From Gemmata obscuriglobus (lineage in GTDB: Bacteria > Planctomycetota > Planctomycetia > Gemmatales > Gemmataceae): a stretch of DNA of 32,000 nucleotides. Of this stretch, positions 6,711-32,000 are shown one piece after another. The first letter of the stretch is position 1; each line of letters starts with the position of its first letter. Below the pieces are notes generated by a model. It had not been told where the DNA came from and made no database searches. It worked only from the letters and a program-made list of their open reading frames with translations. Location of the stretch: NCBI RefSeq assembly GCF_008065095.1, contig NZ_CP042911.1:6090001-6122000 (forward strand), read 5' to 3'. The position numbers were made by a program, and so were the translations under genes.

Positions 6711-6790
6711 GGGTGCTGGTCCTTTCGGTTGTCGGGCCGGTCCCGGACCGGCTCACCTGGGCCTGTGTACGGTCGCGGGCGCGCCGCGGT

Positions 6791-7423
6791 TCAAATCTTA
6801 TCGAGGCCGATGTCGAAGTCGTCGAAGTCGTCCCGCGGGCGCGTCGGCTCTTCTTTTCTGGGCTCCGCCGCCCGGGGCTGTTCGCTCGCCGGCGCTACCG
6901 GTTTATTGATGGGAGCGGCGGGGGCGGCCGCTTCCAGGTCCGACACGTCCGGCACCGACTCCAACTCGCGGACGATGACCTTGCCGCCCTTCACCTCCAC
7001 GCACCGCACCCACACGCCGGCGCCGAGCATCATGCCCTCGGTCATCGCGTCCACGCGCTTCCCGTCGAACTCGACCGACCCCGAGGGGCGCATGGGGGAA
7101 ACGGTTCTGCCGGTCCGGCCCTTCAGTACCGGTTCTGCGGCCGCCGCGGCCTCCGTGCGAGAGCCGTCGAGGGCGTTGTCGAGCGACATCCGGCGCCACG
7201 CCGAAACCGCCACGAACCCCGCGGCCGGCAACCCGACCGACAGGCCCCCGAGGGCGACGAGCGCCTCAATGGTGGTGCCATAGTACAGGATGACGCCGAC
7301 CGCGAGCGCGAAGAAAACGAGCGCCCCGACCACCAAGACGCCGCCGGTCGGGATCAGGATCTCGGCGAGCAGCAGCCCCGCGCCGAGGGCCATCAGGACG
7401 AGTGCGATGGTCAGGTAATCCAT
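6791..7423 (-). CDS. NfeD-family protein, short form (TM region plus C-terminal OB-fold)
   Basis: Three or four N-terminal TM helices, then GRTGRTVSPMRPSGSVEFDGKRVDAMTEGMMLGAGVWVRCVEVKGGKVIVRE, typical of the NfeD OB domain. ATG at 7421-7423. Confidence 0.85.
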   Translation of the reverse strand: MDYLTIALVLMALGAGLLLAEILIPTGGVLVVGALVFFALAVGVILYYGTTIEALVALGGLSVGLPAAGFVAVSAWRRMSLDNALDGSRTEAAAAAEPVLKGRTGRTVSPMRPSGSVEFDGKRVDAMTEGMMLGAGVWVRCVEVKGGKVIVRELESVPDVSDLEAAAPAAPINKPVAPASEQPRAAEPRKEEPTRPRDDFDDFDIGLDKI

Positions 7424-7436
7424 GGCTTCGAGTGCG

Positions 7437-7544
7437 GAATTCGGAGTGCGGAACGCGAAACCGTAACAGCCGCGGAATGCGTAAGAGCGGAATCACTCCC
7501 GTTCTGGGTTTTATTCCGCGTTCCGAGTTCCGCACTCCGAATTC
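7437..7544. repeat. inverted repeat filling the nfeD-nfeD intergenic spacer (GGAAY heptad type)
   Basis: 7437-7454 gaattcggagtgcggaac is the exact reverse complement of 7527-7544 gttccgcactccgaattc (18/18). An inner 7-bp pair gcggaat/attccgc is also present. The left side reads GCGGAAT TCGGAGT GCGGAAC GCGAAAC with 7-nt period. Confidence 0.85.
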
Positions 7545-14227: not shown

Positions 14228-15553
14228 CTACTTCGTGACCTTGAACAGTTGCGCGCCGGTACGGATGTAGAACGCGCCGTCGGCCGCGGCAACCCCGTAC
14301 ACGATCGGGTCGCCGTACTCACCGCCGGGCGCATCCTTCTTGTCACCGGGCGCGTCTTTCTTGCCACCGGCCGGCGTCGGTTTTGCCTTCGTTTCCCAGA
14401 GCTTGTTCGATGCGATCTGATCGAACTCCTTGCCGGCCTTCAGCACGCTGGTGGTGCCGTCCTTGCCGAAGAAGTACACGTGCCCGCCGGCGCCGACCGG
14501 CGAGGCCCAGCACGCGCCGTCGGTGCGCTCGGCGAACAGCTCCTTGCCGGTCGCGAGGTCGTGCGCGTACACCACGCCCACCTGGTTCACGAAGTACGCG
14601 ACGCCTTCGTACCCCAGCGGGGTGGCGTAGTTCGAGACGCCCGCCCTTGCGGCCCACGCGGGTTCAAACGTCGGCTTGCCGTCCTTCGAGACCAATTTCA
14701 GGCACCCGTTGCTCTTGGCCCCGGCGGGCGATTCCTCCTTCGACCGGCTCGTGCCGCCGCCGAACAGCACCCGGTCGCCAATCACCGACGCCGACGGGAT
14801 CGTGTTCCCGACCACGTTGTCGAGCTTCCACAGTTCCTTGCCGGTGTCGGCGGCGTAGCCGATCACCGTACCCGCGCTGCTAGCGATCACCTCGGGGCTC
14901 CCGTTCCGGGTGGCGACGACGGGAGACGCCCAGCCGCCCTTCTGCTCGCGCCCCACCTTCCATTTGTTTTCGCCGTCCACCTTTTTGACCGCCAGCAGGT
15001 ACGACGGCCCGCGGTGGTCGATGAGAACGAACACGGCGTCTTCGGTCTGTGCCAGCGAGCTGCCGATCCCGTGACCGCCCTGGAACTCGCCGTACTCCTT
15101 CACGAGGTCGCGCGCCCAGCGCACCTTGCCGGCGTGGGTCAGCGCGATCAGGTTCCCGCCCTCGAAGAAGCAGTACACCCCGTCCGCGTCGACGCACGGG
15201 GTGGGGGCGGCGCGGCTGATGGTGTAGCTCCACTTTGCCTTCTGAGTGGGCTCGAAGGTGTGCCGCCACTTCTCCTTGCCGGTCTTGGCGTCGAGCGCGA
15301 CCACGTACCCCTTTTCGCGGTTGTCCCCTTCCACGGCGGTCAGGTAGACGGTGCCGTCCCACACCACCGGAGAGGACTGGCCGTAGCCGGGCAGGTCCGC
15401 GGTCCACGCGAGCCCGTCTTTGGGACCCCACGCGGTGGGGTACGCGCCTTTAGCAACGGACTCGCCGGTGCCACGGAAGCCGGGCCAAGCGTCGGCCGCC
15501 GGGGCGGACAGTGCGGTCGAGAGTGAGAGCGTGAGTACGAGTGCGGCGCGCAT
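14228..15553 (-). CDS. secreted PQQ-like beta-propeller repeat protein (BamB-like fold)
   Basis: Signal peptide MRAALVLTLSLSTALSAPAADA, then WPGFRGTG and repeated ...SSPVV.DG.VY..../...ALDA.TGKE.W motifs. Trimmed to the ATG at 15551-15553. Confidence 0.85.
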   Translation of the reverse strand: MRAALVLTLSLSTALSAPAADAWPGFRGTGESVAKGAYPTAWGPKDGLAWTADLPGYGQSSPVVWDGTVYLTAVEGDNREKGYVVALDAKTGKEKWRHTFEPTQKAKWSYTISRAAPTPCVDADGVYCFFEGGNLIALTHAGKVRWARDLVKEYGEFQGGHGIGSSLAQTEDAVFVLIDHRGPSYLLAVKKVDGENKWKVGREQKGGWASPVVATRNGSPEVIASSAGTVIGYAADTGKELWKLDNVVGNTIPSASVIGDRVLFGGGTSRSKEESPAGAKSNGCLKLVSKDGKPTFEPAWAARAGVSNYATPLGYEGVAYFVNQVGVVYAHDLATGKELFAERTDGACWASPVGAGGHVYFFGKDGTTSVLKAGKEFDQIASNKLWETKAKPTPAGGKKDAPGDKKDAPGGEYGDPIVYGVAAADGAFYIRTGAQLFKVTK

Positions 15554-15610
15554 GAGCGCCCTCCGGGTAACGGTTCGCTGCGGTCTGCGCAGCGCGGCAG
15601 TAGGGTGCAA

Positions 15611-15838: not shown

Positions 15839-15888
15839 AAGACAAAAACCAAAACAGACAGCACCAACCGGATTGTGAGTGAATGAGG

Positions 15889-17007
15889 TCACCGCGCGGT
15901 CATCAGGTCGTGCATTCCGAACCCGAGCGCGAGTGCGACACACGCGCCAAACAACACCAGGGCAAACCCGAGCTTGCGCGTGGCCTTCAGTTGCCACCAC
16001 ATGAACACACCCGAAACGCCCCAGAAGACCATCACGAACGCCATCACGTCCACGATCACGGCCCAGAACCACCGCGCGTTCGTGCTGCCCGGGAACCCGT
16101 GTGCCGTGTGCAGGCGGGTGAGGAACCGGCGGGTCGAAAGCTCCTCCGGCGGCGCCGGCGCGCCCGCCGACGCCCCGTTAACGGTGCCGCTCTGGGCGTT
16201 GTAAGTGACGGTCCACACCTTCTCGCCCTCGGACATCCGGAACGTCAGATCCGGGACGCTGGTCACGGTGAGTTCGTCCGTCGGGAACCCGGTGCGTTCG
16301 AGGACGGTGCGCGCTGCCGATTTCACCCGCTCGTGGAGCGGTTCCGGGAGCTGAAGACCGGTCTGAGGCGGAGCGGCCGACGGGGCCGGCTCACCTTTCG
16401 AGCCCCCGCCGCCTTTTTCCCCGCGTTCCCCGCGCCCGCCACCCTTCTCCCCTCGCCCGCCCCCGCCTTTTTCTCCGCGCCCGCCCTTCGTGCCGCTGAC
16501 GGCGAACGGGGCCTTCTCTTCGCTCTTGGGCTGCGCCGCTACCGCGTTCCTCGATCGCACCGTGCCGCCGGCGCTGTTCACGTCGATGGCGATGTTCACG
16601 TCCTGCCCCTCGGCCTTCGCCGTGGCGAACGCGAGGTCGCGTGTGTACTTCGCCTTCTCCGGTTCAACGAGGGTGTAGGCGTGCTCGCCTTTCGCGCGCT
16701 CGTTGAGGGCCGCGACCACCTGGGCCGCCAGTTCCGCGGGCTTGGGCGGCGCTTCCATCGGCGTGCCCGCCAGCTCGGTCGCGCCGAACGAGACCGACGG
16801 CGCGTCGCTGAACGCGGTCGGGTGGTTGAACAGGAACCCGGTGAAGCCGTACAGCACGGCCCAGGGCAGCAGGAACAGCCCGAGGTACAGGTGCGCCCGG
16901 CGGACGACGTGCATCACCCGCTTGCCCAGCGGGCGGCGCTTGACCTGCGGGGCCGGGCGGTCGTACCCGGCGCCCGCGTCGGGCGCGGGCGGTTCGGCAA
17001 CACTCAT
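15889..17007 (-). CDS. PepSY-associated TM-helix protein (PiuB-like iron-regulated membrane protein family)
   Basis: N-terminal RRAHLYLGLFLLPWAVLYGFTGFLFNHP and C-terminal FLTRLHTAHGF....RWFWAVIVDVMAFVMVFWGVSGVFMWW are typical PepSY_TM helices. Start is the ATG at 17005-17007 with GGAG 9 nt upstream. The ORF-track 809-aa ORF is a read-through artefact. Confidence 0.85.
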   Translation of the reverse strand: MSVAEPPAPDAGAGYDRPAPQVKRRPLGKRVMHVVRRAHLYLGLFLLPWAVLYGFTGFLFNHPTAFSDAPSVSFGATELAGTPMEAPPKPAELAAQVVAALNERAKGEHAYTLVEPEKAKYTRDLAFATAKAEGQDVNIAIDVNSAGGTVRSRNAVAAQPKSEEKAPFAVSGTKGGRGEKGGGGRGEKGGGRGERGEKGGGGSKGEPAPSAAPPQTGLQLPEPLHERVKSAARTVLERTGFPTDELTVTSVPDLTFRMSEGEKVWTVTYNAQSGTVNGASAGAPAPPEELSTRRFLTRLHTAHGFPGSTNARWFWAVIVDVMAFVMVFWGVSGVFMWWQLKATRKLGFALVLFGACVALALGFGMHDLMTAR

Positions 17008-17024
17008 CGTTTGCGCTCCGAAAG

Positions 17025-18152
17025 TTAGTAGTCGTTGCCGATCACTTCGCCGCCGTTGCGGCTGCCCAAGGCCCGGTAGGTGGCCATTGACACGCTCTCG
17101 CGAACGAACTTCACCGACCCGTCCCCGAACACGAAGTTGCAGCCGCCGGTGTGGCTGCTGCGGAACCCGCCGAGGGCGGTGTTCTTGTACCAGGCGCTGT
17201 CCGCGTTCGTGTTGAGCGCCGAGGGGGCCGCGGCCGTGCAGGTCACGGTGCCGGCTTTCATGTTCAACGTGGCCGCGGGGCCGACCAGCGTCTTGAAGTT
17301 CATCGGCGTGTGCGTGGCGCCCTCGTTCGCGTCCGCCCCCGGGTGCGGGAACACGTAGTTCGTGTTGCCGGTGAACGGCCCGGTCAGCGCCGCGCCGGTG
17401 TGGATGTTCGTGCCGCTCACCCAGGTGCTGCCCTGAATGGTGTAGTGCTTCTCGCCCGCAAGGAACGTGTTCGACAGCCCGTCGGTGACGCTGGCGAACG
17501 TGAGGTAGCGCAAACTGCCCGCGGCCGTTGTGTTGGTCGCCGGCGGGGGCACGAACGCGGAGACGAACATCCCGTCGTCCTCGGTCCAGCGCTGCTTCGT
17601 GCCGGTCCCGGTCTGGATGACCGCGCCCGAGCCGTCGGTCATGTAGCTGAAGTTCCCCCGGGACGCGACGTAGCTGCTGTACGAGTTGTACCCGGCGTTC
17701 TGCGGCACCGGCATCGAGGGGCAGAGGTAGGTCGGGATCGGGTTGCTGGTGAGGGTCCGGTTCGAGGTCACCCCGTCGGCGCCGACGGTCGCGTCGCTGT
17801 AGCTCTTGGTGCGGTCGTACTTGCTGGCGTAGGCGTCCTGCTCGATGTACGGCAGGATCAGGAGGAACCCGCTGAAGTGCTTCGAGGTGATCCCGTCCGG
17901 CAGAACCGACGGCGCGTACGAGCCGCCCTCGGAGTGCCCGTTCGGGGCGAAGCTGAACACCGGCAGCTTCTGCACCGAATCGTGATAGTTGTGGACCGCC
18001 AGGCCGAGTTGCTTGAGGTTGTTGGCGCACTTCATCCGGGCCGCCGCTTCGCGGACCTTTTGCACCGCCGGGAGCAGCAGGCCGATCAGGACCGCGATGA
18101 TCGCGATCACAACCAGCAGTTCGATCAGCGTGAAGCCCTTCTTCGCGCGCAT
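17025..18152 (-). CDS. DUF1559 / H-X9-DG protein with prepilin-type N-terminal cleavage/methylation domain
   Basis: [56 protein letters not shown] and C-terminal [18 protein letters not shown] (H-X9-DG). AAGGAGAG Shine-Dalgarno upstream of the ATG at 18150-18152. Confidence 0.9.
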
Positions 18153-19690: not shown

Positions 19691-20863
19691 TCACTCACCG
19701 GCAGTCGGATCGAATGCACGAGCCACCCGGACCATCACTCCGGCCATGAACCCCATCGCGGTCAGCACGAGAATTGCAGAGACCGTACCCGGTTGCCCCA
19801 GAAACACGAACAGTTCGCCGGACCATACCCGCTTCGGCGCGGTCGGCGCATCGCGCCGGTCGAGCAGCGCCACTTCATCCGCGCGCGGCTTTAAGACCTC
19901 TGACGGCAGTGTTGCCTTTTCCGGCCCTTTTCCCTCGGCGGCTTTCATCTCGTAAGGCAAAGCGTCCTCATCCTCATCGGTCCGGCTTTCCCCACGGTCA
20001 AGCGAGCGCGGGGAATCGGCCGGGTCGCGCTCGCGCGGGAGCGGCGGGGCAAGCGGTTTCGGAGGGTCGTCGTCGGCCACTTGCGCTTTCACACGCTTGC
20101 GCGGCGGCTTCGGCGGATCGTCGTCCGCGATCAGCACGTTGTACCCCACCAGTTCGCCGTCCGGAGTGTTAATCGGCTGGAGGTCACTCGGCTGAGTCGC
20201 GAGCGCGACTGACTCTTCAGATTCCTTGACGCGGGCGCGTTTCGCCGGCCCCGGTTTGGGTTTCTTCTTCCGGCGCCGGAGCAGGTCTTTTGTGAACAGC
20301 AGCGCGAACGCCAGCCGCCCCAACAAGCGGGCATAGAGGAGCATCGTAACCGCCAGCAGCGGCATTCCGACAAAGAGCAGCGGGTACTCACCTTTGGTCA
20401 GAAACGCCCACTTGAATGCCACCCCGAACACCGCGTACACGGGCACCGTCAACACGAAGAAGCCCGCCGTTACCGCCGGCTTCTGCGCCAACCGGGCGAA
20501 CACGTCCGCGTTAAGGGGCACCCACGCGGTCGATGCGCTCAGCGAAGCGAGCTGGCTCACCGGGTACAGAGCCCACATCACCAGCAGCGGGACCACGAAC
20601 TTCAGCCAGGGTTCGCTCGGCCCGACCGCCCGGCTGATCAGGTAGGCCGGTCCGGCCCAGAGTCCGATCAGCCACGCGAGGTAGAACACTTTGAGGAAGT
20701 TGTCGGTGAGCGCCTCGCCCTGCCAGGGGATCTCCTTCGCGCCCGCCGCGGTGCCTTCCAGCACTGACAGGTAGTAGTTCGCCGCGCAAAGCAAGAACAA
20801 GAACCCGAACAGTGTGCTGCCGACCAGCGCGGGCACAAATATCAGAGCCTCAAGACCCACCAT
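19691..20863 (-). CDS. hypothetical multi-pass membrane protein
   Basis: About 6 N-terminal TM helices, a basic stretch RRRKKKPKPGPAKRARVK, a duplicated ADDDPPKP motif and a C-terminal TM helix. No family recognised. Confidence 0.7.
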   Translation of the reverse strand: MVGLEALIFVPALVGSTLFGFLFLLCAANYYLSVLEGTAAGAKEIPWQGEALTDNFLKVFYLAWLIGLWAGPAYLISRAVGPSEPWLKFVVPLLVMWALYPVSQLASLSASTAWVPLNADVFARLAQKPAVTAGFFVLTVPVYAVFGVAFKWAFLTKGEYPLLFVGMPLLAVTMLLYARLLGRLAFALLFTKDLLRRRKKKPKPGPAKRARVKESEESVALATQPSDLQPINTPDGELVGYNVLIADDDPPKPPRKRVKAQVADDDPPKPLAPPLPRERDPADSPRSLDRGESRTDEDEDALPYEMKAAEGKGPEKATLPSEVLKPRADEVALLDRRDAPTAPKRVWSGELFVFLGQPGTVSAILVLTAMGFMAGVMVRVARAFDPTAGE

Positions 20864-21375: not shown

Positions 21376-22953
<1,578 letters not shown>

Positions 22954-23038: not shown

Positions 23039-24049
23039 TTAGTAGCGGATGCCGGTCGTGAACTGGATGTTGATGTTGTGGATGTTCCCCTGGATCGGCG
23101 GCACCAGGTTGGTCCAGTCGTGGCCGTACTCGACCCGCACCCCGTTGGTCCAGATCCACGCCCCCACCGGGATGTCGAAGGTGGTGTGGACGCCGGTGAA
23201 GATGCCGTGGAACACGTTCTGCCGCCGGGCGTAGCCGTCGACCTCGGTCAGCGGGTTCACGTCCACGGAGGAGGTGCCGTACCGGCCCCCGATCCACCCG
23301 CCGACCCGCCAGTTGGTCCCGTTCTGCCCGCCGGTGCTGCCGTTCCCCAGGAGCCACACGTCGCGACCGATCGCGTAGTTGAAGCTGGACCGGCGGATCC
23401 CCCGGATGCCGCTCAGCACGAGCCGGTCCGGTTGGGGCTGAAGTTCCGTGACCCCGTCGTTCGGACTCGGGTCGGCCGCCGGGGTGCGGAGGAACAGGTT
23501 GGTCGGCGACTGCGCCCCCTGGCCGCGGTTGTAGGTGTAGCTCCCGCCGAGGTCGATCGTCCACGCGGCGGTGTGGGTGGCGTCGAAGAACAGCGTGCGG
23601 ACCCCGCCGCCGACCGTCCAGCCGACCGCGTTCAGCCGGTCCGGGAGGCCGTTGCCGATGGTGAAGTTCAGCCCGGTGAAGCTGTACAGCTCGTACCCGA
23701 TCCGGCCGTCGCGGCCGAGCGGGCCGCAGCACCCCGGGCCGTCGACGTAATACGGGCTGGGGTAACTGCCGGGCGGGTACGCGGGCTGGGTCGCCGCCGG
23801 TTCGCCGTCCAACCACCCCGCCGGCCCGGCCCCCGGTGGCGCCTGCATCTGCTGCAGGCTCGTCACGCCCGCCGGCGTGCGGACGGGCGGGGCCGGAGGC
23901 GGGACCTCCGGTTCGGCGGCCGCAACCGGCCGCACCGACGGCACCAGTGAAGAATAGTCCCCGAACCCGGCCGTTCGGGGCTGCGCGACGACCGGTCCGG
24001 TGCCGAGCGCCACCACGAACCCAGTCAGCAGGAAGCGCGTGCTAGTCAT
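23039..24049 (-). CDS. outer-membrane beta-barrel protein (planctomycete BBP7-like porin candidate)
   Basis: Signal peptide MTSTRFLLTGFVVALGTGPVVAQ, a Pro-rich linker, a GPGCCGP motif, then alternating beta-strand pattern ending in the aromatic terminus ...QFTTGIRY. Trimmed to the ATG at 24047-24049. Confidence 0.75.
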   Translation of the reverse strand: MTSTRFLLTGFVVALGTGPVVAQPRTAGFGDYSSLVPSVRPVAAAEPEVPPPAPPVRTPAGVTSLQQMQAPPGAGPAGWLDGEPAATQPAYPPGSYPSPYYVDGPGCCGPLGRDGRIGYELYSFTGLNFTIGNGLPDRLNAVGWTVGGGVRTLFFDATHTAAWTIDLGGSYTYNRGQGAQSPTNLFLRTPAADPSPNDGVTELQPQPDRLVLSGIRGIRRSSFNYAIGRDVWLLGNGSTGGQNGTNWRVGGWIGGRYGTSSVDVNPLTEVDGYARRQNVFHGIFTGVHTTFDIPVGAWIWTNGVRVEYGHDWTNLVPPIQGNIHNINIQFTTGIRY

Positions 24050-24387
24050 TCGCCCCTCGCAAGCCATTGCGAACACGAAGGTGGCGACCGCAGACAGCTC
24101 GATCCCGACCCACGTCACAACTTCTATCGGCTGGCGCCCGGGCAAACTTTAGCGGCTCGAACGATTAGCACGAATGTATCGAACAGATGGTCTACGCGGC
24201 CATCCCGGCTTGTGCCACCAACGTCACTCACCCACAGTGCCACGACACGTTCCCGCCTCGAACGAGCGGGCCGCGGATCCGGTCCCTTGCAACGAAGGCA
24301 GAAGCTCGGGAGGGCATCGGGGTTTGGTGCTGTCGGCCGGACCTGCTATAAGTGGTTCAGCACAAGCTGCGCACCTGGGAAGGTTTC

Positions 24388-25824
24388 ATGGACCCGACCG
24401 AACTCCGCGATCTGGACGCGGCCCGCCGGTACATTCTGGACGGGTTGCTGCTCCAGCGCGCGGTCAAGCCCACCGCCAACACCGTCCGGCGCGCCCTCGA
24501 GTGGGCGATGGAAATCGCGTCCGAAGGCGACCCGCTCCCGCCGATCGGGTTCGTGGCCGACGTCGGGCACGTCGCGCTCGGCGTGGACACCGACCAGCGG
24601 GCGCGAGAAGCCCACCCGGTGCCCGGGTGGCCGCCGGCGTTGGGGCGCAGCTACGAGGACCACGTCCTCGGCAAGCTCTACGCCGACTGGACCTTCGAGC
24701 GCGCCGGCGACGCGCTGCGGAAGTACAAGGACCGTGACCGCGTCCGCGGGCTGGCCTACCTGGTGCGCCAGATTTGTGACCGGGCCGGGTTCGCCGGGGT
24801 GCTGCTCCCGCCGGCCGTGATCCGGTCGCTCCAGACCACCAACCCCGACGAGATCATCAAGTCGTCCTACGACGAACTGGTCCGCGACGGCCCGCTCCCG
24901 CTGCTCGTGCAGCTCTACGAGGCGCTCGTGGCGGCCGGGCGGCGCACCGCCGAGGTGTTGGCCCTCGAAGACATCCTCGCGATCGAACAGGGCACCGCGA
25001 TCGCCGACAAGGCGCACTACGTCGCGCACCGGCAGATCGTACAAACGACGGCCCGGCTCGAAGCGAAGCTCCCGGGCCGGCCGGTGAAGCCGCTCGTGGG
25101 CCGCAAAGAGGTTCCGACCCGCGTGATGGACGAGGACCAGTACCCGGTCGGCGGGTACACGTCGATCTCCACGAAGGGCTCGATCGAAAGCCTGCTGCAC
25201 TCGCAACTGGCGTACATGGAGCCGGAGAGCCCCGACCTGTTCGACATGAAGTTCGTGCGGGACGAGCTGTTCTACTACTCGCGCGACGAGAACCAGTTCC
25301 TCCGGCGCCGCCGCGCGTTCGTGTTCGTGCTGTACCCGGACCTGGTCACCGCCCGTTTCAAGGACGCCGACCTTCCCTACCAGCGGATCGTTCTGGTCCA
25401 GGCCACGATCCTGGCGCTCGTGCGGCGGTTGACCGAGTGGCTGAGCACGGACGCCATCCGCTTCGAGGTGCTGTTCGTGCAAGAGGGCGGGAAGAACCCG
25501 CTGACCGAAGAGGCAGCGCTGCTGAAGTTGCTGCTGCGCGAGCCGATCGAGCGCGGCGACGGCGAGGTGCTCGAGCTGCCCAACCAGGAGGCAATTGAGA
25601 AGCACCTGGGCACGCTGTCGCGCAGCGCGCAGGTCCACTGTCTCGCGGTCGCGGCCGAACCGGTCACGCTGGACCTAGAAACGGTGGTGGTGACGAAACT
25701 GATGGTGAAAGGGTCGCACCCGGTGATCAAGACCGGCAGCGTGCTTTCCGACCACCTCGACGGCGAGGACGCGTTCGATTTGTGGCAGAGCGTCGTGCTG
25801 CGGGCGCTGGAGTTGTGGGTGTGA
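24388..25824 (+). CDS. conserved-looking cytoplasmic hypothetical protein (478 aa), family not recognised
   Basis: High GC3, balanced composition and no TM helix or signal peptide. ATG at 24388 is preceded by GGAAGG. The opposite-strand 430-aa ORF has typical shadow-ORF composition (R/L/V/H/D/E-rich). Confidence 0.75.
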   Translation: MDPTELRDLDAARRYILDGLLLQRAVKPTANTVRRALEWAMEIASEGDPLPPIGFVADVGHVALGVDTDQRAREAHPVPGWPPALGRSYEDHVLGKLYADWTFERAGDALRKYKDRDRVRGLAYLVRQICDRAGFAGVLLPPAVIRSLQTTNPDEIIKSSYDELVRDGPLPLLVQLYEALVAAGRRTAEVLALEDILAIEQGTAIADKAHYVAHRQIVQTTARLEAKLPGRPVKPLVGRKEVPTRVMDEDQYPVGGYTSISTKGSIESLLHSQLAYMEPESPDLFDMKFVRDELFYYSRDENQFLRRRRAFVFVLYPDLVTARFKDADLPYQRIVLVQATILALVRRLTEWLSTDAIRFEVLFVQEGGKNPLTEEAALLKLLLREPIERGDGEVLELPNQEAIEKHLGTLSRSAQVHCLAVAAEPVTLDLETVVVTKLMVKGSHPVIKTGSVLSDHLDGEDAFDLWQSVVLRALELWV

Positions 25825-25989: not shown

Positions 25990-27270
25990 ATGTTTTCGAC
26001 CTGGATCAACGATCCCACCGTTCTGCTGGCCGGTGTGGTGCTGGCAGCCGTGCAGTTCGTCGCCGCGCTGCCGTGGCTCTGGGCCATCGACCCGAAAGGG
26101 TTTAAGGCCGCGTCCAGCAGCCCGGTGGCGTTCCTGTACGTCCTGCTCGGCCTCCTCGGGGCCGGGGTCGGCGTCGCCACCTTCCTCGGGTACAAGGGGG
26201 ACGCCACGGTCCTCGCCTGGAACGGGCGGTACATCTACGGCGCGGTCCTGCACCTCCAGCTCATCATCGCCGTGTTCCTCCTGCTGCCGCAGGCGCTCAT
26301 CATGGTGTGGCCCAAGGGGGGCGTGGTCGCGTACGCTGCGTTCCGCGAGAGCTGCCGCCAGCCGATGTTCTGGCTCATCACCGGCGCCGCCGCCATCGCC
26401 GTCTGGATCTCCATCACGATCCCGTACTTCACGTTCGGCGACGACTACAAGATGATGAAGCAGATCGGCTTCGACATCGTGATGCTCTCCGCGACCCTGT
26501 TCGGCATCCTGGCCGCCAGCATGTCGATCAGCGAGGAGATCGAGGGCCGCACCGCGGTCACGCTGATGAGCAAGCCGGTGAACCGCCGCCAGTTCCTGCT
26601 GGGCAAGTTCCTCGGCATCCTGATGGCCTGTCTGGTGATGTCGCTGCTCCTGAGCTGGACGCTCACCGACGCGCTGCGGGCGATGCGCGAGTTCGACCCG
26701 ATCAACAACACGGCGGACCCGTCCGACCCGCTCGGCACCGCCGAAAAGGTGGTGGACCCGCTCACGTTCCAGGCCCAGAGGACCGTTGTACCGCCGTTCC
26801 GGGCGGCCGTGCCGAGCGCGCTCGGTAAAGCGGTCGCGACCGGCGCGGGGCTGCGGTTCTCGGACGCGCTCGCGCACTCGTTCGGGGTCGCGCTCGGGTT
26901 CGGACAGGTCATGATCCTGGTCGCGGTGGCGTCCGCCCTGGCAACGCGGGTCGCGTTCGTCGTGAACCTCGTGCTGTGTCTGGTCCTGTACTTCCTCGGG
27001 CACCTCGCGCCGGTCGTGGTGCAGGTGACTCAGCAGGCCCAAGGCGGCGGGGTGGGGGTGCGGCTGATCGGCTTCCTCGGGCAGCTCTTCGACGCCCTGC
27101 TCCCGTCTCTCGAGTCGTTCAACATGGGCCGGGCAATCATCCGCGAGAGCCCGCTCGACTTGTGGCAGTTCGGCGTGTACGTCCTCACGGTCACAGCGTA
27201 CTCGCTGATCTACACCGTCATCGCGCTCCTCGGCGGCCTGCTGCTGTTCGAAGACCGCGACCTCGCGTGA
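25990..27270 (+). CDS. ABC-2-type transporter permease-like membrane protein
   Basis: Multi-pass TM protein with the ABC-2 family hallmark ...SISEEIEGRTAVTLMSKPVNRRQFLLGKFLGILMACLV... ATG at 25990. Confidence 0.8.
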   Translation: MFSTWINDPTVLLAGVVLAAVQFVAALPWLWAIDPKGFKAASSSPVAFLYVLLGLLGAGVGVATFLGYKGDATVLAWNGRYIYGAVLHLQLIIAVFLLLPQALIMVWPKGGVVAYAAFRESCRQPMFWLITGAAAIAVWISITIPYFTFGDDYKMMKQIGFDIVMLSATLFGILAASMSISEEIEGRTAVTLMSKPVNRRQFLLGKFLGILMACLVMSLLLSWTLTDALRAMREFDPINNTADPSDPLGTAEKVVDPLTFQAQRTVVPPFRAAVPSALGKAVATGAGLRFSDALAHSFGVALGFGQVMILVAVASALATRVAFVVNLVLCLVLYFLGHLAPVVVQVTQQAQGGGVGVRLIGFLGQLFDALLPSLESFNMGRAIIRESPLDLWQFGVYVLTVTAYSLIYTVIALLGGLLLFEDRDLA

Positions 27271-27492: not shown

Positions 27493-29736
27493 GTGTCGAG
27501 GGCTCACGTGGACGGCGACGCACTCACCCGGCTCCGCACCGACTTCGTCAAATCCCCCGCGGCTCGACGAGGCGCGATCCTGAGTTCCATCGGCGCCGCC
27601 GTAACGTGCGCCTTCCTCGTTTTGCTCCTGTATTTGTTCGTGGACCTGCTCGTGTGGCGCGGCGAGATCCCGCACTATGGGGAGCTCACGGCGGCGCAAA
27701 AGAAGGAATTCGCCACCGAGTGGGCGGAGCATTCCGACGCCGACCGAAACGCTGCGGTCGCCCGGCTCAACTGGGCGGACCCGTTACGCGTGAAGCGGCT
27801 CACCGCCAAAAGTGACGAGGAACTCAAGCCGCTGGCACGCTCACAGGCCGAAGAGCACCTCTTCGCCGACGAGTGGGACGCGCGGTGGCACGCGGGGGTG
27901 TACCTCACGCTCCGCGAACGCGTGCATCAGGCCGCCGCCGACGCGTACCTCCCGCCCTCGGGCTCGGAGCGTGCCGATAAGGCCGAAGGCAGCGACCCCG
28001 ACGCGAAACCGCAGTTCGGGTTGCTCAGCCTCGTGGTGCGCGAGCGGAACCGGTGGACGGCGCCGCTCCTGGGCCGGGTCGCCGCCTGGGCCGGGTGGAC
28101 GTGGAAGCCGGGGGCGACTGGGTCCGCGAACGTCACGTACCTGACCGGGCTGTTCGTGCTCGCCTTGGGGCTCGCGGCCGTCCGCGGAGTTCTGGTGAAC
28201 GCCCTCACGTACCTGTCGGCCGCGGTCACCCTCGAAGCGGTCACCAAGGTGCGGCGCGCCGTGTACTTCCACACCTACCGGTTGGGCACGCTCACGATGC
28301 AGGCGGTCGGCACCGCCGAGGCCGCGCGGCTGCTCACGGAGCGGGTCGAGGAGGTGGGCGACGCGCTGCACGCGCGGCTCACCGGCGCGGTCCGGTATCC
28401 GCTCACCGCGGCGCTCCTGCTGGTGGTCATCCTGCTCGTGAACTTCTGGCTCGCGCTCAGCTTCCTGGCGCTCGCGTCGCTGGTGTGGCTGGTCGGCGGC
28501 CAGGTCGCGGCGCACTTCCGGCGCGAGGGCCGGTTCGGCGAACGGCAGGCCGCCGCGGCGCTCGCGCTCCTTAAGGAAAGCATGGCCCTGTTCCGGCTGG
28601 TGAAGTGCTTCCAGATGGAGCGGTTCAACCAGGCCCGCGTCGAGCGCCAGTTGAACGAATCGGCCCGGGCGAACTGGCGCAAGATGCGCGGCAGCACGCT
28701 CGCGAGTCCGCTCCTCGGCTCGGTCGTGCTGGTGGCGGGCGTCGCCCTGCTGTACCTCGCGGCGCGGGGCGTATTGGCGGGCGGGTTCACGGTCGCGGGC
28801 CTCGCGGTGCTCGCCGTCGCGCTGGTGGCGCTCGGCGCGCCGGTCGCGGGCCTGTTCGACTACGCCGCCAAACAGAAGCGCGGGCGCGAGGCCGCGGACG
28901 CGATCTTCGAGTTCCTCGACCGCCGCGGCGAGGCCGCCGAGGCCGCCGACGCGGAGTTCCTCCCGGCGCTCACCACCCGCATCGAGTTCCGCCAAGTCAC
29001 CCTCGACGACCCCGCCACCGGCAAGCGGCTGCTGGAGAGCGTCACGTTCGCGGTGCCGGTTCACGCGAGCGCCGCCATCGTCGGCCCCGACCCGGCCGAG
29101 AAGCACGCGCTCATGTACCTCGTGCCGCGGTTCCTCGACCCGACCTCGGGTGAGATCCGGATCGAGGACAAGAACATCCGGTGGGTCACGCACGAATCCC
29201 TCCGCGCGCAGGTCGCGGTGGTGATGCTCGACGACCTCACATTCACCGACACGGTCGCGAACAACATTGGGGTCGGGAACCCGGAGCACAGCCTGCCGCA
29301 AATCATTGAGGCCGCGAAACTGGCGCACGCGCACCAGTTCATCGAGAAGCTGCCCTTCGGCTACGAAACGCTGATCGGGCCGACCGGCCACACGCTGACA
29401 CTCGGCCAGCGGTTCCGCGTCGCGCTCGCCCGCGCCCTGCTCCGCGACCCGTCCGTGCTGGTGATCGAGGAGCCGACCGGGCCGGTGGACGAGGACACGC
29501 TCGCGCTGCTCGACGACACGCTGGCCCGGATCTCCGCCGGGCGCACGATCCTGTTCCTCGCCCAGCGGCTGTCGACGCTGCGGAACGTGAACCGCGTGTT
29601 CGTGCTGAAGGGCGGGCGCATCGAGGCGTCGGGCACCCACGACGAACTCTGGAAGGACAGCGACACCTACCGCGGGTTGCAACTGACCGCCGACGCGACC
29701 GCGACCGAGTACCCCGCGCTGAAGGACACCGAATGA
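27493..29736 (+). CDS. ABC exporter-type TMD-NBD fusion protein with degenerate nucleotide-binding motifs
   Basis: MsbA-like six-helix TMD with a roughly 170-aa insert after TM1, and a C-terminal ABC fold recognisable from ...LARALLRDPSVLVIEEP... and ...RLSTL..... GTG start at 27493, with an alternative in-frame GTG at 27508. See the findings for motif degeneracy. Confidence 0.85.
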   Translation: MSRAHVDGDALTRLRTDFVKSPAARRGAILSSIGAAVTCAFLVLLLYLFVDLLVWRGEIPHYGELTAAQKKEFATEWAEHSDADRNAAVARLNWADPLRVKRLTAKSDEELKPLARSQAEEHLFADEWDARWHAGVYLTLRERVHQAAADAYLPPSGSERADKAEGSDPDAKPQFGLLSLVVRERNRWTAPLLGRVAAWAGWTWKPGATGSANVTYLTGLFVLALGLAAVRGVLVNALTYLSAAVTLEAVTKVRRAVYFHTYRLGTLTMQAVGTAEAARLLTERVEEVGDALHARLTGAVRYPLTAALLLVVILLVNFWLALSFLALASLVWLVGGQVAAHFRREGRFGERQAAAALALLKESMALFRLVKCFQMERFNQARVERQLNESARANWRKMRGSTLASPLLGSVVLVAGVALLYLAARGVLAGGFTVAGLAVLAVALVALGAPVAGLFDYAAKQKRGREAADAIFEFLDRRGEAAEAADAEFLPALTTRIEFRQVTLDDPATGKRLLESVTFAVPVHASAAIVGPDPAEKHALMYLVPRFLDPTSGEIRIEDKNIRWVTHESLRAQVAVVMLDDLTFTDTVANNIGVGNPEHSLPQIIEAAKLAHAHQFIEKLPFGYETLIGPTGHTLTLGQRFRVALARALLRDPSVLVIEEPTGPVDEDTLALLDDTLARISAGRTILFLAQRLSTLRNVNRVFVLKGGRIEASGTHDELWKDSDTYRGLQLTADATATEYPALKDTE

Positions 29737-30542
29737 CGGATTACAGCACCGAGCTGGCGGCGGCACGTCACGCCGCCGCTCGCGCCAGTGACTTCCTTCG
29801 CCGCGAGTACGAGGCGTTCACCCCGATCCCCGACGCCCCGGTTTCGATCAGCACGCACGCGGACCGTGCGTCGCAGGAATTGATCCTCGGCCTCTTGCAC
29901 GAGCAATTTCCCGGGGACGCGCTGTGCGCCGAGGAGTCGACGCCACAGTTCGACGGCGTGGCGAAATCGGGAAAGCGGACGTGGGTCGTGGACCCCATCG
30001 ACGGCACCCGCGGGTTCGCGAAAAAGGTCGGCCAGTTCTCGGTCATGATCGGCCTTCTGGTTGACGGGCTCCCCGTGGTGGGGGTCGTGGCCGAACCGGT
30101 GCAGCAGCGGATCACGTTCGCACGGATCGGCGGCGGCTGCTGGCTCCAATTCGGTAACGAGGAGCCGACGCGCTGCCAGGTTTCGGCCCGCGCGTTCGAC
30201 GAACTCGTGCTCGTGCAGAGCTGGGCGAAAACGGGCATGTCGCCGAAGCCGGTGCGTGCGCTGGCACCCAAAACGGTGATCGAGACGTATTCCGGCGGGG
30301 TGAAGCTGGCGTGTGTGGCGCGTGGCGATGCCGACGTGTACGCGAATACCTACGGCACGTTCGCGGACTGGGACATTTGCGCCGGCCACCTGCTCGTGAC
30401 CGAGGCCGGCGGCACGGTCACGTTCCTGAACGGCGCGCCTGTAACCTATCAGGCACCGGAGTTCAAACAAACGAACGGGCTGCTCGCCACAAACGGGCTC
30501 GTCCACGCGCAAGCGGTCGCGGCTTTGAGCCGTGAATCGTGA
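29733..30542 (+). CDS. inositol-monophosphatase-family phosphatase (IMPase/CysQ-like)
   Basis: Motifs CAEES, WVVDPIDGTRGF and WDICAG. The ATG overlaps the upstream stop (ATGA at 29733-29736). Confidence 0.9.
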   Translation: MTDYSTELAAARHAAARASDFLRREYEAFTPIPDAPVSISTHADRASQELILGLLHEQFPGDALCAEESTPQFDGVAKSGKRTWVVDPIDGTRGFAKKVGQFSVMIGLLVDGLPVVGVVAEPVQQRITFARIGGGCWLQFGNEEPTRCQVSARAFDELVLVQSWAKTGMSPKPVRALAPKTVIETYSGGVKLACVARGDADVYANTYGTFADWDICAGHLLVTEAGGTVTFLNGAPVTYQAPEFKQTNGLLATNGLVHAQAVAALSRES

Positions 30543-30812: not shown

Positions 30813-32000
30813 TTATGGCCGCACATCGAAGCAGAGTACCTTTTCCTCATCGCGAACGTACAGCAGACCGTTCACCAGGGTCGGCGTGGCCCAGTTGTTG
30901 TTCCCGGTCAGCACCTTCGGCAGCTTCGACACCAGTGTGTATTCCTTGGGATTTGCCTCCACCAAGCACAGGTCGCCCCGCGCGGTCTGCAGGATGAGGT
31001 GTTCACCCGCCAGAATCAGGCTCGCCTGCCCGATCTCGCGCGCCTCCCAGTCCGGTACCGATTTCCCGGTCATGAGCGTGACGCACTTCAGCCCGCCGCT
31101 GCCCTGGGTGCCGTCGATGCCGAAGAGGTGCTTGTCCTTGTACACGCTCGTCGCGTGGTGGTTCGCGAATCCGTTGCGACGCTGCTCGTACACCTTTACC
31201 AAGGTAACCTCGTCACCCCGGCGTTCGGCCCGTAGAAGCGCGCAGCCCATTTCGTACGCGGACGAGATGAACACGTACTCGCTGTCCACCACCAGGGGCG
31301 TCGCGATGTTCCCGCTGAACCGTGTGGCCCACTTGAACTCGCTCATCACCTTTCCGTCGGCAGCACGCACTGCGAGGAGAGCGTCACCCAAAAACGCGAA
31401 GATCACTTCAAGGCCGCCAATGCTGGCCGCGACCGGCGAACTGTATCCCGGCGGGTTAGAACCCGCCCGCCACTTCACCGCGCCACTCGCTCTATCAAAC
31501 GCGACGACCGCGGCCCCATTGCCGCCCGGTTGCACAACCACCATCTCGCCCAGAAGCAGCGGGGAACACGCAACACCCCACTGCGGCAGGTCCGCGTTGA
31601 ATTCGGTGATGAGATCGTGTTCCCAGCGCACCTGGGGCCGATCCCCCTCGATCTCAAGTGCGAGCAATTTGCCCGCGCCACCAACCGTAAATACCCAGCT
31701 CCCCGCGACCGTCGGCGTGGCGCGCGGGCCGATCGCATAGGTGCGGTCCTTACCGGCCTGCCCCGATGGGTACGTGTGTTCCCACACGAGCCGCCCGGTT
31801 TCGGCGTCCAGGCACACGACGCGCTCGTTCTCGCCCTGGCGGTCCTGAACGTACAACCGTCCCCCGACCACCGCACACGACCCGTACCCGCCGCCGATTG
31901 GCGTGCGCCACAGTTGTTTCGGAGGGCTCTTGTCCCAGTCGGTACGAAACGATCCGGCCGGCGCAACGCCCGCGTGCCCGGCCCCGCGCCACTGCGGATA
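30813..32000 (-). CDS. PQQ-like beta-propeller repeat protein, 5'-partial (runs off the window)
   Basis: The frame stays open upstream of the ORF-track GTG at 31871 to the window edge. It reads YPQWRGAGHAGVAPAGSFRTDWDKSPPKQLWRTPIGGGYGSCAVVGGRLYVQD, the typical propeller N-terminus. Repeated ..A.DA.TG...W motifs follow. Confidence 0.85.
   Translation of the reverse strand, partial: YPQWRGAGHAGVAPAGSFRTDWDKSPPKQLWRTPIGGGYGSCAVVGGRLYVQDRQGENERVVCLDAETGRLVWEHTYPSGQAGKDRTYAIGPRATPTVAGSWVFTVGGAGKLLALEIEGDRPQVRWEHDLITEFNADLPQWGVACSPLLLGEMVVVQPGGNGAAVVAFDRASGAVKWRAGSNPPGYSSPVAASIGGLEVIFAFLGDALLAVRAADGKVMSEFKWATRFSGNIATPLVVDSEYVFISSAYEMGCALLRAERRGDEVTLVKVYEQRRNGFANHHATSVYKDKHLFGIDGTQGSGGLKCVTLMTGKSVPDWEAREIGQASLILAGEHLILQTARGDLCLVEANPKEYTLVSKLPKVLTGNNNWATPTLVNGLLYVRDEEKVLCFDVRP

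What the first reader, a model, noticed from the sequence alone, without database searches (positions are those of the whole stretch)
27493..29736. ABC exporter-like protein in which every catalytic NBD motif is degenerate
The comparison is against the MsbA-type consensus. Walker A GxSGSGKST reads GPDPAEKHA (29083-29109), so both P-loop Gly and the Ser/Thr are lost. The Q-loop Q is L (VVMLDDLTF). The signature LSGGQ reads LTLGQ (29395-29409). Walker B hhhhDE reads VLVIEE (29455-29472). The D-loop SALD reads GPVD. The H-loop His is Gln (29563-29565, LAQRLST). Walker A and the signature are both damaged, so a homodimer would have no competent ATP site. The overall fold sequence is nevertheless well preserved, which argues for selection on a non-hydrolytic role such as a scaffold, sensor, or partner of another half-transporter. 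There is also a roughly 170-aa insert between TM1 and TM2.
Basis: partly seen in the sequence, partly recalled or inferred. Interest (0 to 1): 0.65.

Follow-up and report, generated by a model that had tools for sequence, protein, structure and literature searches.

The report
ABC exporter family with dead ATPase
This Gemmata gene encodes an MsbA-like membrane exporter whose ATP-burning motor has lost its catalytic residues; the same loss is conserved under purifying selection across planctomycete bacteria, usually beside an orphan ABC-2 permease, so it is a working non-hydrolytic protein and not a broken gene.

Summary
Window 27493-29736 (+) encodes a 747-aa type IV (MsbA/ABCB-like) ABC half-transporter; the true start is probably GTG 27508, giving 742 aa. 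It is not a strain-specific pseudogene. About 280 relatives lack a canonical Walker A: 120 Gemmataceae orthologues, about 45 clusters at 29-47% identity, and 118 Planctomycetales proteins. They share hhhhEEP for Walker B, LxxG[E/Q] for the signature and a non-His H-loop. The NBD is the best conserved region, with dN/dS 0.02-0.21. The family spans Gemmatales, Isosphaerales and Planctomycetales. A NosY-like ABC-2 permease sits directly upstream in 59 of 75 loci. No ATPase or canonical half-transporter is consistently nearby. Two MsbA lipid-A ring arginines (R78, R148) are retained. My best reading is a conserved pseudo-ATPase MsbA derivative that works without its own ATP hydrolysis, probably together with the ABC-2 protein. 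The mechanism and substrate are inferred, not shown. An unlinked canonical partner cannot be excluded. I rate it a new variant of a known kind, of moderately high interest.

The parts
27493..29736 (+). Gene for the type IV (MsbA/ABCB-like) ABC half-transporter with a degenerate NBD. It is 747 aa from GTG 27493, and more likely 742 aa from GTG 27508, which is preceded by a conserved GAGG at 27498-27501.
27574..27660 (+). TM1 (residues 28-56)
   Evidence: hydropathy; helix 22-55 in the AF2 model
27661..28128 (+). Periplasmic ECL1 insert between TM1 and TM2 (residues 57-212, about 155 aa). It is predicted all-helical, matches no known domain, and is the least conserved part of the protein. Its length varies from 18 to 195 aa across the family.
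28114..28833 (+). ABC_membrane domain (PF00664, residues 208-447; TM2-TM6). It aligns to E. coli MsbA 57-296 without gaps.
28183..28185 (+). R231, aligned with MsbA R78 (lipid A ring residue). Arg in 84% of the family.
   Evidence: role of R78 from PMC8660845
28393..28395 (+). R301, aligned with MsbA R148 (lipid A ring residue). Arg in 72% of the family.
29032..29478 (+). ABC_tran domain (PF00005, residues 514-662). The whole NBD spans about residues 496-730.
29008..29010 (+). A-loop position, D506 in place of the conserved Tyr
29083..29109 (+). Degenerate Walker A, GPDPAEKHA (canonical G-x-x-G-x-G-K-S/T-T)
29227..29229 (+). Q-loop position, L579 (Gln in most Gemmataceae orthologues, absent in Planctomycetales)
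29395..29409 (+). Degenerate signature LTLGQ (canonical LSGGQ). The family consensus is L-x-x-G-[E/Q].
29455..29490 (+). Walker B VLVIEE followed by D-loop PTGPVD. Walker B Asp to Glu is present in 92% of the family. The catalytic Glu is 100% conserved and the D-loop Asp 94%.
29563..29565 (+). H-loop position, Q691 in place of His (His in only 23% of the family)
25990..27270 (+). Upstream same-strand gene for a NosY-like ABC-2 permease (PF12679/PF12730, 426 aa). It has no adjacent ATPase gene. It is the recurrent neighbour of the family.
29733..30542 (+). Downstream IMPase-family (CysQ/HisN-like) gene whose ATG overlaps the ABC stop codon (ATGA). It is a recurrent neighbour in Gemmatales only.

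Best explanation
The gene encodes a functional member of an uncharacterised family of MsbA-derived type IV ABC half-transporters found across class Planctomycetia. In this family the nucleotide-binding domain has become a pseudo-ATPase.

Shown here:
- The transmembrane domain and NBD fold are recognisably intact.
- All ATP-contacting motifs are replaced.
- The replacements are themselves conserved: Walker B hhhhEEP, signature LxxG[E/Q], non-His H-loop, and a Walker A without the GK[ST] core.
- The NBD is under strong purifying selection.
- The gene usually lies directly downstream of an orphan NosY-like ABC-2 permease.

Inferred:
- The protein forms a homodimer with no ATP-hydrolysing site.
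- The NBD-like domains are kept as structural, dimerisation or regulatory modules that still engage the coupling helices.
- The cavity still carries the MsbA R78 and R148 equivalents, so it probably binds an anionic lipid or glycolipid.
- It therefore acts as an ATP-independent translocator, holder or scaffold. Any energy would come from elsewhere, for example the membrane potential or a partner.
- It works in the same pathway as the ABC-2 protein, and possibly in the same complex.
For: - Motif positions are fixed by alignments to solved structures and to MsbA.
- 0 of 120, 0 of 118 and about 0 of 52 relatives have a canonical Walker A. 96 of 96 long ABCB-like representatives from the same search do.
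- Canonical invariants are lost family-wide: A-loop Tyr, Walker A Gly/Lys/Ser, Q-loop Gln, signature Ser and H-loop His. E660, D666, R647 and G553 are kept.
- The NBD is the most conserved region, 0.83 against 0.77 for the TMD.
- NBD dN/dS is 0.02-0.21 in six pairwise comparisons.
- The family occurs in Gemmata, Frigoriglobus, Fimbriiglobus, Zavarzinella, Telmatocola, Singulisphaera, Tundrisphaera, Stratiformator, Calycomorphotria and Alienimonas.
- An ABC-2 permease lies directly upstream on the same strand in 59 of 75 loci with enough upstream DNA. This includes members at about 31-37% identity.
- The permease model (pTM 0.77) best matches NosY.
- No canonical half-transporter or soluble ABC ATPase is consistently present within +/-10 kb.
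- R231 and R301 align to MsbA R78 and R148 and are Arg in 84% and 72% of the family.
- Precedents exist for ATP-independent work by this fold. SbmA is proton-driven and lacks NBDs (PMC13316013). MsbA-MD without its NBD is described as drug-transport active (PMC8660845).
Against: - No biochemical data exist.
- The oligomeric state is untested because no multimer prediction was available.
- The AF2 monomer model is poor (pLDDT 68, pTM 0.45).
- No conserved acidic residues lie in the TM segments, so an SbmA-type glutamate ladder is absent.
- The MsbA R296 and K299 equivalents are not conserved.
- The permease-ABC intergenic distance is 44-251 nt in called genes, and 222-237 nt in the window. A conserved motif lies upstream of the ABC start. 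Co-transcription is therefore not shown.
- 16 of 75 loci lack the adjacent permease.
- Type V and type IV TMDs are not known to form mixed complexes.
- Whole genomes could not be searched for an unlinked canonical partner.
Confidence: 0.55

Rival explanations
1. The protein is the degenerate subunit of a heterodimeric ABC exporter. It pairs with a canonical half-transporter encoded elsewhere in the genome. The single active site uses the partner's Walker A, Walker B and H-loop together with this protein's LxxG[E/Q] signature. This would be an extreme version of TM287/288, TmrAB or BmrCD.
For: - One-sided degeneracy is common in type IV exporters (PMC7756269).
- The catalytic-site-independent parts of the NBD are conserved: the D-loop Asp, the X-loop and signature helix, and the coupling-helix region.
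- Planctomycete genomes have eroded operon structure (general knowledge), so an unlinked partner is conceivable.
- Whole genomes could not be scanned.
Against: - No canonical half-transporter is consistently adjacent in 88 loci of about 20 kb each. The only one of exporter size with a strong NBD match is in L080, 5 kb away, and it is not conserved in the sister loci.
- In known heterodimers the chain with the dead Walker B and H-loop keeps an intact Walker A, where ATP stays bound, and a canonical signature for the active site. Here both are lost in the same chain, so the supposed active site would also lack the signature Ser-Gly.
- The Walker A Lys is not even conserved family-wide, at 46%.
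Confidence: 0.2
2. The protein is a pseudo-ATPase that works on its own. Its adjacency to the ABC-2 permease and the IMPase-family gene reflects only inherited gene order or loose co-regulation, with no shared function.
For: - Intergenic gaps of 44-251 nt, and a conserved upstream motif plus SD sequence, suggest the gene has its own promoter.
- 16 of 75 loci lack the permease neighbour.
- There is no precedent for type IV / type V co-complexes.
Against: - The pair is retained across three orders, down to about 31% identity, while all other neighbours change.
- The permease is an orphan with no ATPase gene nearby, which calls for an explanation.
Confidence: 0.17
3. The NBD still binds and hydrolyses a nucleotide, or another phospho-ligand, using non-canonical chemistry. 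In this view the conserved Glu-Glu pair and the Walker A Lys/Arg substitute for the usual residues.
For: - The EE pair (92% and 100%) and the D-loop Asp (94%) are conserved.
- Gemmataceae members keep the Walker A Lys, and most keep the Q-loop Gln.
Against: - The glycine before the Walker A Lys is Glu in most Gemmataceae. From general P-loop structure, this should clash with the phosphates.
- The Mg-coordinating Ser/Thr is His, Arg or Ala.
- The A-loop aromatic residue, the signature Ser-Gly and the H-loop His are all gone.
- Across the family Walker A has no conserved Gly or Lys at all, for example SLDPLEARA in Planctomycetales.
Confidence: 0.07
4. The gene is a decaying, strain-specific pseudogene or an assembly artefact.
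For: None beyond the degenerate motifs themselves.
Against: - The reading frame is intact, with GC3 of 0.92.
- It is 97% identical to the gene in Gemmata algarum JC673.
- Hundreds of full-length relatives carry the same substitutions.
- dN/dS is well below 1.
Confidence: 0.01

Closest known systems
MsbA (lipid A / LPS flippase, type IV ABC exporter; TIGR02203)
   Same: - MsbA is the best NCBIfam match.
- The protein is 27% identical to E. coli MsbA over 522 aa, with a gap-free TMD alignment.
- It has the same TMD-NBD half-transporter architecture.
- The equivalents of the lipid A ring residues R78 and R148 are retained.
   Different: - It scores 271 bits against the 602-bit cutoff.
- All ATP-site motifs are degenerate.
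- The R296 and K299 equivalents are not conserved.
- It carries an extra periplasmic helical insert of about 155 aa.
- It is not next to lpxK. Its neighbours are an ABC-2 permease and an IMPase-family gene.
Heterodimeric type IV exporters with one degenerate nucleotide-binding site (TM287/288, TmrAB, BmrCD, TAP1/2, MsRv1273c/72c)
   Same: Non-canonical Walker B, H-loop, Q-loop or signature residues are tolerated and conserved in a working transporter (PMC7756269).
   Different: - In those systems the degeneracy is split between two chains, so one site stays canonical.
- Their degenerate site still binds ATP through an intact Walker A.
- Their partner genes are adjacent.
- Here Walker A, signature, Walker B Asp, H-loop and A-loop are all lost in one chain, and no partner gene is linked.
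SbmA/BacA (SLiPT) secondary transporters, and NBD-less MsbA-MD
   Same: Both show that the type IV ABC transmembrane fold can work without ATP hydrolysis (PMC13316013; PMC8660845).
   Different: - SLiPTs have lost the NBD and the coupling helices, and they use a conserved glutamate ladder.
- This family keeps a full, highly conserved NBD.
- It has no conserved acidic residues in its TM segments.
NosDFY (NosY permease / NosF ATPase), the closest relative of the neighbouring gene product
   Same: The upstream protein matches PF12679. Its AF2 model best matches NosY, with TM-score 0.55-0.59 normalised to the target.
   Different: - No NosF-like ATPase, NosD or NosL gene is nearby.
- Gemmatales versions carry about 110 extra N-terminal residues, predicted helical in the AF2 model, and an internal insert.
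Non-transporting ABC proteins (SUR1/2 regulators, CFTR channel)
   Same: These are ABC exporter folds that have been re-purposed for regulation or gating instead of pumping.
   Different: They retain at least one ATP-binding or hydrolysing site. They are also eukaryotic ABCC full-length proteins.

Membership tests
Type IV ABC exporter (ABCB/MsbA-like half-transporter) | Six-helix ABC_membrane domain (PF00664) N-terminal to the NBD | tested here: met
   PF00664 at residues 208-447, 58.5 bits against a cutoff of 28. TM1 lies at 28-56, separated by the insert.
Type IV ABC exporter (ABCB/MsbA-like half-transporter) | ABC-type NBD fold (PF00005) | tested here: met
   PF00005 at residues 514-662, 56.3 bits against a cutoff of 25. 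Full-length alignments to ABCB19, ABCB1 and MsbA.
Type IV ABC exporter (ABCB/MsbA-like half-transporter) | Walker A G-x4-G-K-[ST] | tested here: not met
   The window reads GPDPAEKHA. 0 of 120 Gemmataceae orthologues and 0 of 118 Planctomycetales relatives are canonical.
Type IV ABC exporter (ABCB/MsbA-like half-transporter) | Signature LSGGQ | tested here: not met
   The window reads LTLGQ and the family reads LxxG[E/Q]. Ser is lost family-wide.
Type IV ABC exporter (ABCB/MsbA-like half-transporter) | Walker B hhhhD-E and H-loop His | tested here: not met
   The window reads VLVIEE. Asp to Glu is present in 92% of the family, and the catalytic Glu is kept. The H-loop is Gln here, and His in only 23% of the family.
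Type IV ABC exporter (ABCB/MsbA-like half-transporter) | ATP binding and hydrolysis | not testable with these tools
   This needs a biochemical assay.
MsbA (TIGR02203 equivalog) | Score at or above the NCBIfam equivalog cutoff (602 bits) | tested here: not met
   271.5 bits.
MsbA (TIGR02203 equivalog) | Basic ring residues that bind the lipid A phosphates (R78, R148, R296, K299; PMC8660845) | tested here: inconclusive
   R231 aligns to R78 (84% Arg in the family) and R301 to R148 (72%). The R296 and K299 equivalents are not conserved.
Heterodimeric ABC exporter with one degenerate site | Adjacent gene for a second, complementary half-transporter | tested here: not met
   No consistent second PF00664/PF00005 gene within +/-10 kb in 88 loci. 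None is present in the 32-kb window.
Heterodimeric ABC exporter with one degenerate site | An intact Walker A, and a canonical signature, in the chain that carries the degenerate Walker B and H-loop | tested here: not met
   Both are degenerate in the same chain. Definition from PMC7756269.
SLiPT (SbmA/BacA) | No NBD, and a conserved glutamate ladder in the TMD | tested here: not met
   The NBD is present and is the most conserved region. No family-conserved acidic residues lie in the TM segments.
NosDFY-type ABC-2 system (neighbouring gene) | NosY-like permease fold | tested here: met
   PF12679, E 7e-11. The AF2 model (pTM 0.77) best matches 7znq_Y and 7o0y_E, with TMt 0.55-0.59.
NosDFY-type ABC-2 system (neighbouring gene) | Cognate NosF-type ATPase and NosD encoded alongside | tested here: not met
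   No soluble ABC ATPase is consistently present in the loci. None is present in the window.

The most novel reading that the evidence does not exclude
Planctomycetia carry an ancient class of MsbA-derived exporters that has given up ATP altogether but kept the NBD as a structural or regulatory module. This would be a living intermediate between ABC exporters and SbmA-type secondary transporters. It would operate as a homodimer with no ATP-hydrolysing site, in a mixed machine with an ATPase-less NosY-like type V permease, handling an anionic envelope lipid or glycolipid.
Probability: 0.25. Interest if true: 0.8.

Novelty: new variant of a known kind. Interest (0 to 1): 0.62.

Why it matters
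- **A new regime for the fold.** Current models of ABC exporters assume at least one competent ATP site. Known degenerate transporters always keep one, and they still bind ATP at the degenerate site. This conserved family has lost Walker A, signature, A-loop and H-loop in the same chain, and has no linked partner. It would show that the full TMD-NBD architecture can be kept for a non-hydrolytic job.
- **Link to secondary transporters.** The family offers a natural system to ask what NBDs do besides burning ATP, such as dimerisation, gating or coupling-helix clamping. It may also show how SbmA-like secondary transporters arose from ABC ancestors.
- **Annotation.** Automated annotation names these proteins 'MsbA' or 'HepA' ATP-binding proteins. 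That is misleading for reconstructing LPS or envelope biogenesis in Planctomycetes.
- **The orphan permease.** The pairing with an ATPase-less NosY-like permease is itself unexplained.

Tried and rejected
- **AF2 model of the ABC protein** (47-sequence alignment). It gave pLDDT 68 and pTM 0.45. Foldseek finds MsbA, ABCB8 and TmrAB with probability 1.0 but TM-scores of only 0.2-0.3. I used it only as confirmation of local fold, not for pocket geometry.
- **ECL1 insert.** It has no Pfam domain and no significant PDB sequence match, with the best E about 0.9.
- **PADLOC.** Only a weak generic NBD hit appeared (mad3, 39 bits), and nothing for the neighbours. I rejected a defence-system reading, even though the ivWA gene is upstream. 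ivWA is linked only in Gemmata-like genomes, 18 of 88 loci.
- **Rfam.** No match at gathering threshold anywhere in the window.
- **Promoter and terminator scan.** Counts were at background level and uninformative for this high-GC, non-sigma-70-consensus organism.
- **Gap estimates.** My first permease-ABC gap estimates used stop-to-stop ORFs and overstated how tightly the genes are spaced. Called genes give 44-251 nt. I therefore do not claim translational coupling for that pair. Only the ABC/IMPase ATGA overlap is real.
- **PDB sequence search with the permease.** No hit. Only the fold search was informative.
- **Literature.** Searches for a described ABC exporter family with fully degenerate NBDs, or for this Planctomycete family, found nothing relevant.
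- **'Gained' conserved NBD residues** (for example T566, S569, K609). I considered these as a new interface and rejected the idea. Several are simply MsbA-subfamily features when compared with the eukaryotic ABCB control set.
Full report
**1. The object**

Window 27493..29736 (+) is an intact 747-aa ORF. Its third-position GC is 0.92, typical of real genes in this 68% GC window. Pfam finds an ABC_membrane domain at residues 208-447 and an ABC_tran domain at residues 514-662, both well above their curated cutoffs. NCBIfam ranks MsbA first, but at 271 bits against a cutoff of 602. It then lists a long series of other type IV exporters, none of which reaches its cutoff.

The protein is 96-97% identical to that of Gemmata sp. 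JC717 and G. algarum JC673, so the window is Gemmata algarum or a very close relative. Orthologues begin MNGDALTRL. A GAGG invariant across the 10 aligned loci lies 6 nt upstream of GTG 27508. The true start is therefore probably 27508, giving 742 aa.

**2.

| Motif | Canonical | This protein | Coordinates |
|---|---|---|---|
| A-loop | Tyr | D506 | 29008-29010 |
| Walker A | GSGSGKST | GPDPAEKHA | 29083-29109 |
| Q-loop | Gln | L579 | 29227-29229 |
| Signature | LSGGQ | LTLGQ | 29395-29409 |
| Walker B | ILLLDE | VLVIEE | 29455-29472 |
| D-loop | SALD | GPVD | 29479-29490 |
| H-loop | His | Q691 | 29563-29565 |

Four details need correcting.
- The first Walker A Gly and the Lys survive in this protein.
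- The catalytic Glu (E660) survives.
- The Q-loop Leu is peculiar to this lineage. Most Gemmataceae orthologues have Gln.
- The TM1-TM2 insert is about 155 aa, residues 57-212.

**3. It is a conserved family, not decay**

The 120 best relatives are all Gemmataceae, full length, and 59-96% identical. They all carry G-x4-[E/Q]-[K/R]-[H/R]-[A/S] for Walker A, L-x-[P/L/T]-G-[E/Q] for the signature, hhhhEEPxGPxD for Walker B plus D-loop, and mostly Q or N in the H-loop.

An exhaustive HMMER scan of 1.84 billion cluster representatives adds about 45 half-size clusters at 29-47% identity with the same pattern. In these even the Walker A Lys and first Gly disappear, for example FADPAEALA and SLDEDAKHA.

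A search seeded with the Stratiformator vulcanicus member gives 118 Planctomycetales proteins. None has a canonical Walker A. The typical Walker A is SLDPLEARA, the Q-loop Gln is absent, the signature is LDAGQ, and the H-loop is Thr, Ser, Gln or Asn. In contrast, all 96 long ABCB-like representatives found by the same scan have canonical Walker A motifs.

A column-by-column comparison of 113 family members against 41 canonical NBDs gave these results.
- Lost family-wide: the A-loop Tyr, Walker A G/K/S, the Q-loop Gln, the signature Ser and the H-loop His.
- Fixed switches: Walker B Asp to Glu (92%), and the residue after the catalytic Glu from Ala to Pro (96%).
- Retained: E660 (100%), the D-loop Asp (94%), R647, G553 and the helical-subdomain and X-loop region.

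The NBD is the best conserved part of the protein, with mean column conservation 0.83 against 0.77 for the TMD and 0.57 for the insert. Pairwise NG86 dN/dS for the NBD is 0.02-0.21.

**4. Distribution**

The genome scan and named hits place the family in three orders.
- Gemmatales: Gemmata, Frigoriglobus, Limnoglobus, Fimbriiglobus, Zavarzinella, Telmatocola.
- Isosphaerales: Singulisphaera, Tundrisphaera.
- Planctomycetales: Stratiformator, Calycomorphotria, Alienimonas.

A few MAG records titled Bacteroidales or Alcaligenaceae carry typical planctomycete versions and are probably mis-binned. I did not establish whether the family occurs in Pirellulales, Phycisphaerae or anammox bacteria.

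**5. Genomic context**

Within the 32-kb window there is no second PF00664 or PF00005 gene. The same-strand neighbours are these.
- An ivWA protein at 24352-25824.
- An ABC-2 permease at 25990-27270 (PF12679/PF12730).
- The ABC gene itself.
- An IMPase-family gene at 29733-30542, whose ATG overlaps the ABC stop codon as ATGA.

I analysed 88 sequences, the window plus 87 related loci of up to about 22 kb each, with six-frame ORFs and phmmer/hmmsearch.
- The ABC-2 permease lies directly upstream on the same strand in 59 of 75 loci with enough upstream DNA. This includes the Isosphaerales loci.
- The IMPase-family gene occurs in 55 of the 88, all Gemmatales.
- ivWA occurs in 18, all Gemmata-like.

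Database gene calls confirm the permease-ABC pair in Telmatocola (37% identity), in a 1-Mb metagenome contig (37%), in a 31% identity metagenome contig, and in Stratiformator (31%). All other neighbours differ in these loci.

The intergenic distance is 44-251 nt, so I do not claim translational coupling. My earlier stop-to-stop 'gaps' overstate how tightly the genes are spaced. A canonical ABC ATPase or half-transporter is not a consistent neighbour. The only one of exporter size with a strong NBD match is in L080, and it is not shared with the sister loci.

**6. The neighbouring permease**

The permease is even better conserved than the ABC protein, at 67-97% identity among the top 120 hits. 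Its AF2 model (pLDDT 73, pTM 0.77) best matches NosY of NosDFY, with target-normalised TM-score 0.55-0.59. The next matches are PmtCD, ABCG25 and CcmB, which makes it a type V / ABC-2 transmembrane domain. Such permeases normally sit next to their ATPase gene. This one does not.

**7. Ancestry and cavity**

The TMD aligns to E. coli MsbA without gaps from MsbA residue 57 to 296. In this alignment R231 corresponds to MsbA R78 and R301 to MsbA R148. These are two of the basic 'ring' residues that bind the lipid A phosphates and are needed for lipid transport (PMC8660845). They are Arg in 84% and 72% of the family, and are not basic in the eukaryotic ABCB control set.

The R296 and K299 equivalents are not conserved. 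No acidic residue is conserved inside the TM segments, so there is no SbmA-type glutamate ladder. The periplasmic insert is predicted helical. It matches nothing known and varies from 18 to 195 aa in length. It is a lineage-specific elaboration and not a family feature.

**8. Interpretation**

*Shown.* This is a conserved, selected, MsbA-derived half-transporter family in which every ATP-contacting motif has been replaced. It is genetically associated with an orphan NosY-like permease.

*Inferred.* A homodimer cannot form a competent ATP site. In known degenerate transporters one site stays canonical and the degenerate site still binds ATP through an intact Walker A (PMC7756269). Here Walker A and the signature are lost in the same chain. 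Even a heterodimer would have a crippled consensus site.

The high conservation of the NBD, especially the Glu-Glu pair, the D-loop Asp and the helical subdomain, argues that the domain is kept as a structural, dimerisation or regulatory module coupled to the TMD. The retained MsbA arginines suggest that an anionic lipid or glycolipid ligand is still bound.

There are precedents for this fold working without ATP. SbmA is proton-driven and lacks NBDs (PMC13316013). MsbA-MD without its NBD is described as drug-transport active (PMC8660845).

My best explanation, at confidence about 0.55 for the whole package, is a non-hydrolytic translocator, holder or scaffold that acts in the same pathway as the ABC-2 protein. 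The factual core (a conserved pseudo-ATPase family) is near certain.

*Rivals.*
- An unlinked canonical partner (0.2).
- The same pseudo-ATPase acting independently of its neighbours (0.17).
- Non-canonical nucleotide chemistry (0.07).
- A pseudogene (0.01).

**9. Novelty**

I found no description of this family, or of any ABC exporter family with a fully degenerate NBD, in the searchable literature. Databases label the proteins 'ABC transporter ATP-binding protein', 'MsbA' or 'HepA'. It is best classed as a new variant of a known kind: a type IV ABC exporter taken to complete loss of the catalytic site, with an unusual type V permease neighbour.

**10. Limits**

- There is no biochemistry.
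- There is no multimer model.
- The monomer model of the ABC protein is poor.
- Co-transcription of the pair is not shown.

Noticed in passing
window 27498-27510: A GAGG invariant in 10 aligned loci lies 6 nt upstream of GTG 27508, and orthologues start MNGDALTRL. The ABC gene therefore probably starts at 27508 (742 aa), not 27493. A further motif conserved among the Gemmata-like loci (CTCACAC...CTG-TAG-CTGA) lies about 60-90 nt upstream and may be the gene's own promoter or leader.
   Followed up: partly
window 25990-27270 (+): A NosY-like ABC-2 permease (PF12679; AF2 pTM 0.77; best PDB match NosY) has no ATPase gene anywhere in the window or in most related loci. Gemmatales versions carry about 110 extra N-terminal residues compared with the Isosphaerales versions of about 260-300 aa. 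The C-terminus ...LLLFEDRDLA is invariant.
   Followed up: partly
window 29733-30542 (+): An IMPase-family gene is closest to CysQ and HisN but below both NCBIfam cutoffs. Its start overlaps the ABC stop codon (ATGA). It recurs downstream of the ABC gene in Gemmatales (55 of 88 loci) but not in Isosphaerales or Planctomycetales.
   Followed up: partly
window 24352-25824 (+): An ivWA protein carries PF19996 plus PF19997, the 'vWA domain found in the FtsH ternary systems'. No FtsH-like or other ternary-system partner is in the window. It is syntenic upstream of the permease only in Gemmata-like genomes, and in L005 it is separated from the permease by three PDZ genes.
   Followed up: partly
window 21376-22911 (-) and upstream to ~23040: A thiC gene (PF01964, E 1e-188) is present, but no TPP riboswitch, or any other Rfam family, reaches gathering score anywhere in the window.
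   Followed up: no
window 23039-24145 (-): A 368-aa ORF with coding-like GC3 (0.92) has no Pfam match. It ends ...FTTGIRY, an outer-membrane beta-barrel-like aromatic C-terminus. An unannotated gene of 331-346 aa occupies the same position next to thiC/ivWA in other Gemmataceae loci (L001, L002, L003, L005).
   Followed up: no
window 5598-9731 (-): A flotillin operon is present: FloA (5598-6710), a short NfeD (6791-7423) and a long 728-aa NfeD1b-type protein (7545-9731).
   Followed up: no
window 11462-13075 (-), 15883-17028 (+), 19691-20863 (-): Three long ORFs have no Pfam match. The first, at 11462-13075, has coding-like GC3 (0.88) and lies in the most GC-rich kilobase of the window (0.745 at 12001-13000).
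   Followed up: no
loci L026, L032, L033, L043, L086: MAG records titled Bacteroidales or Alcaligenaceae carry typical planctomycete versions of the degenerate ABC gene at 36-45% identity to the query. L026, L032 and L033 also carry the upstream permease. These are likely mis-binned contigs or mislabelled records.
   Followed up: no
window 14228-15610 (-) and 30813-31871 (-): Two PQQ_2/BamB-like beta-propeller genes are present. A similar propeller gene recurs downstream of the module in several Gemmataceae loci (L003, L005).
   Followed up: no
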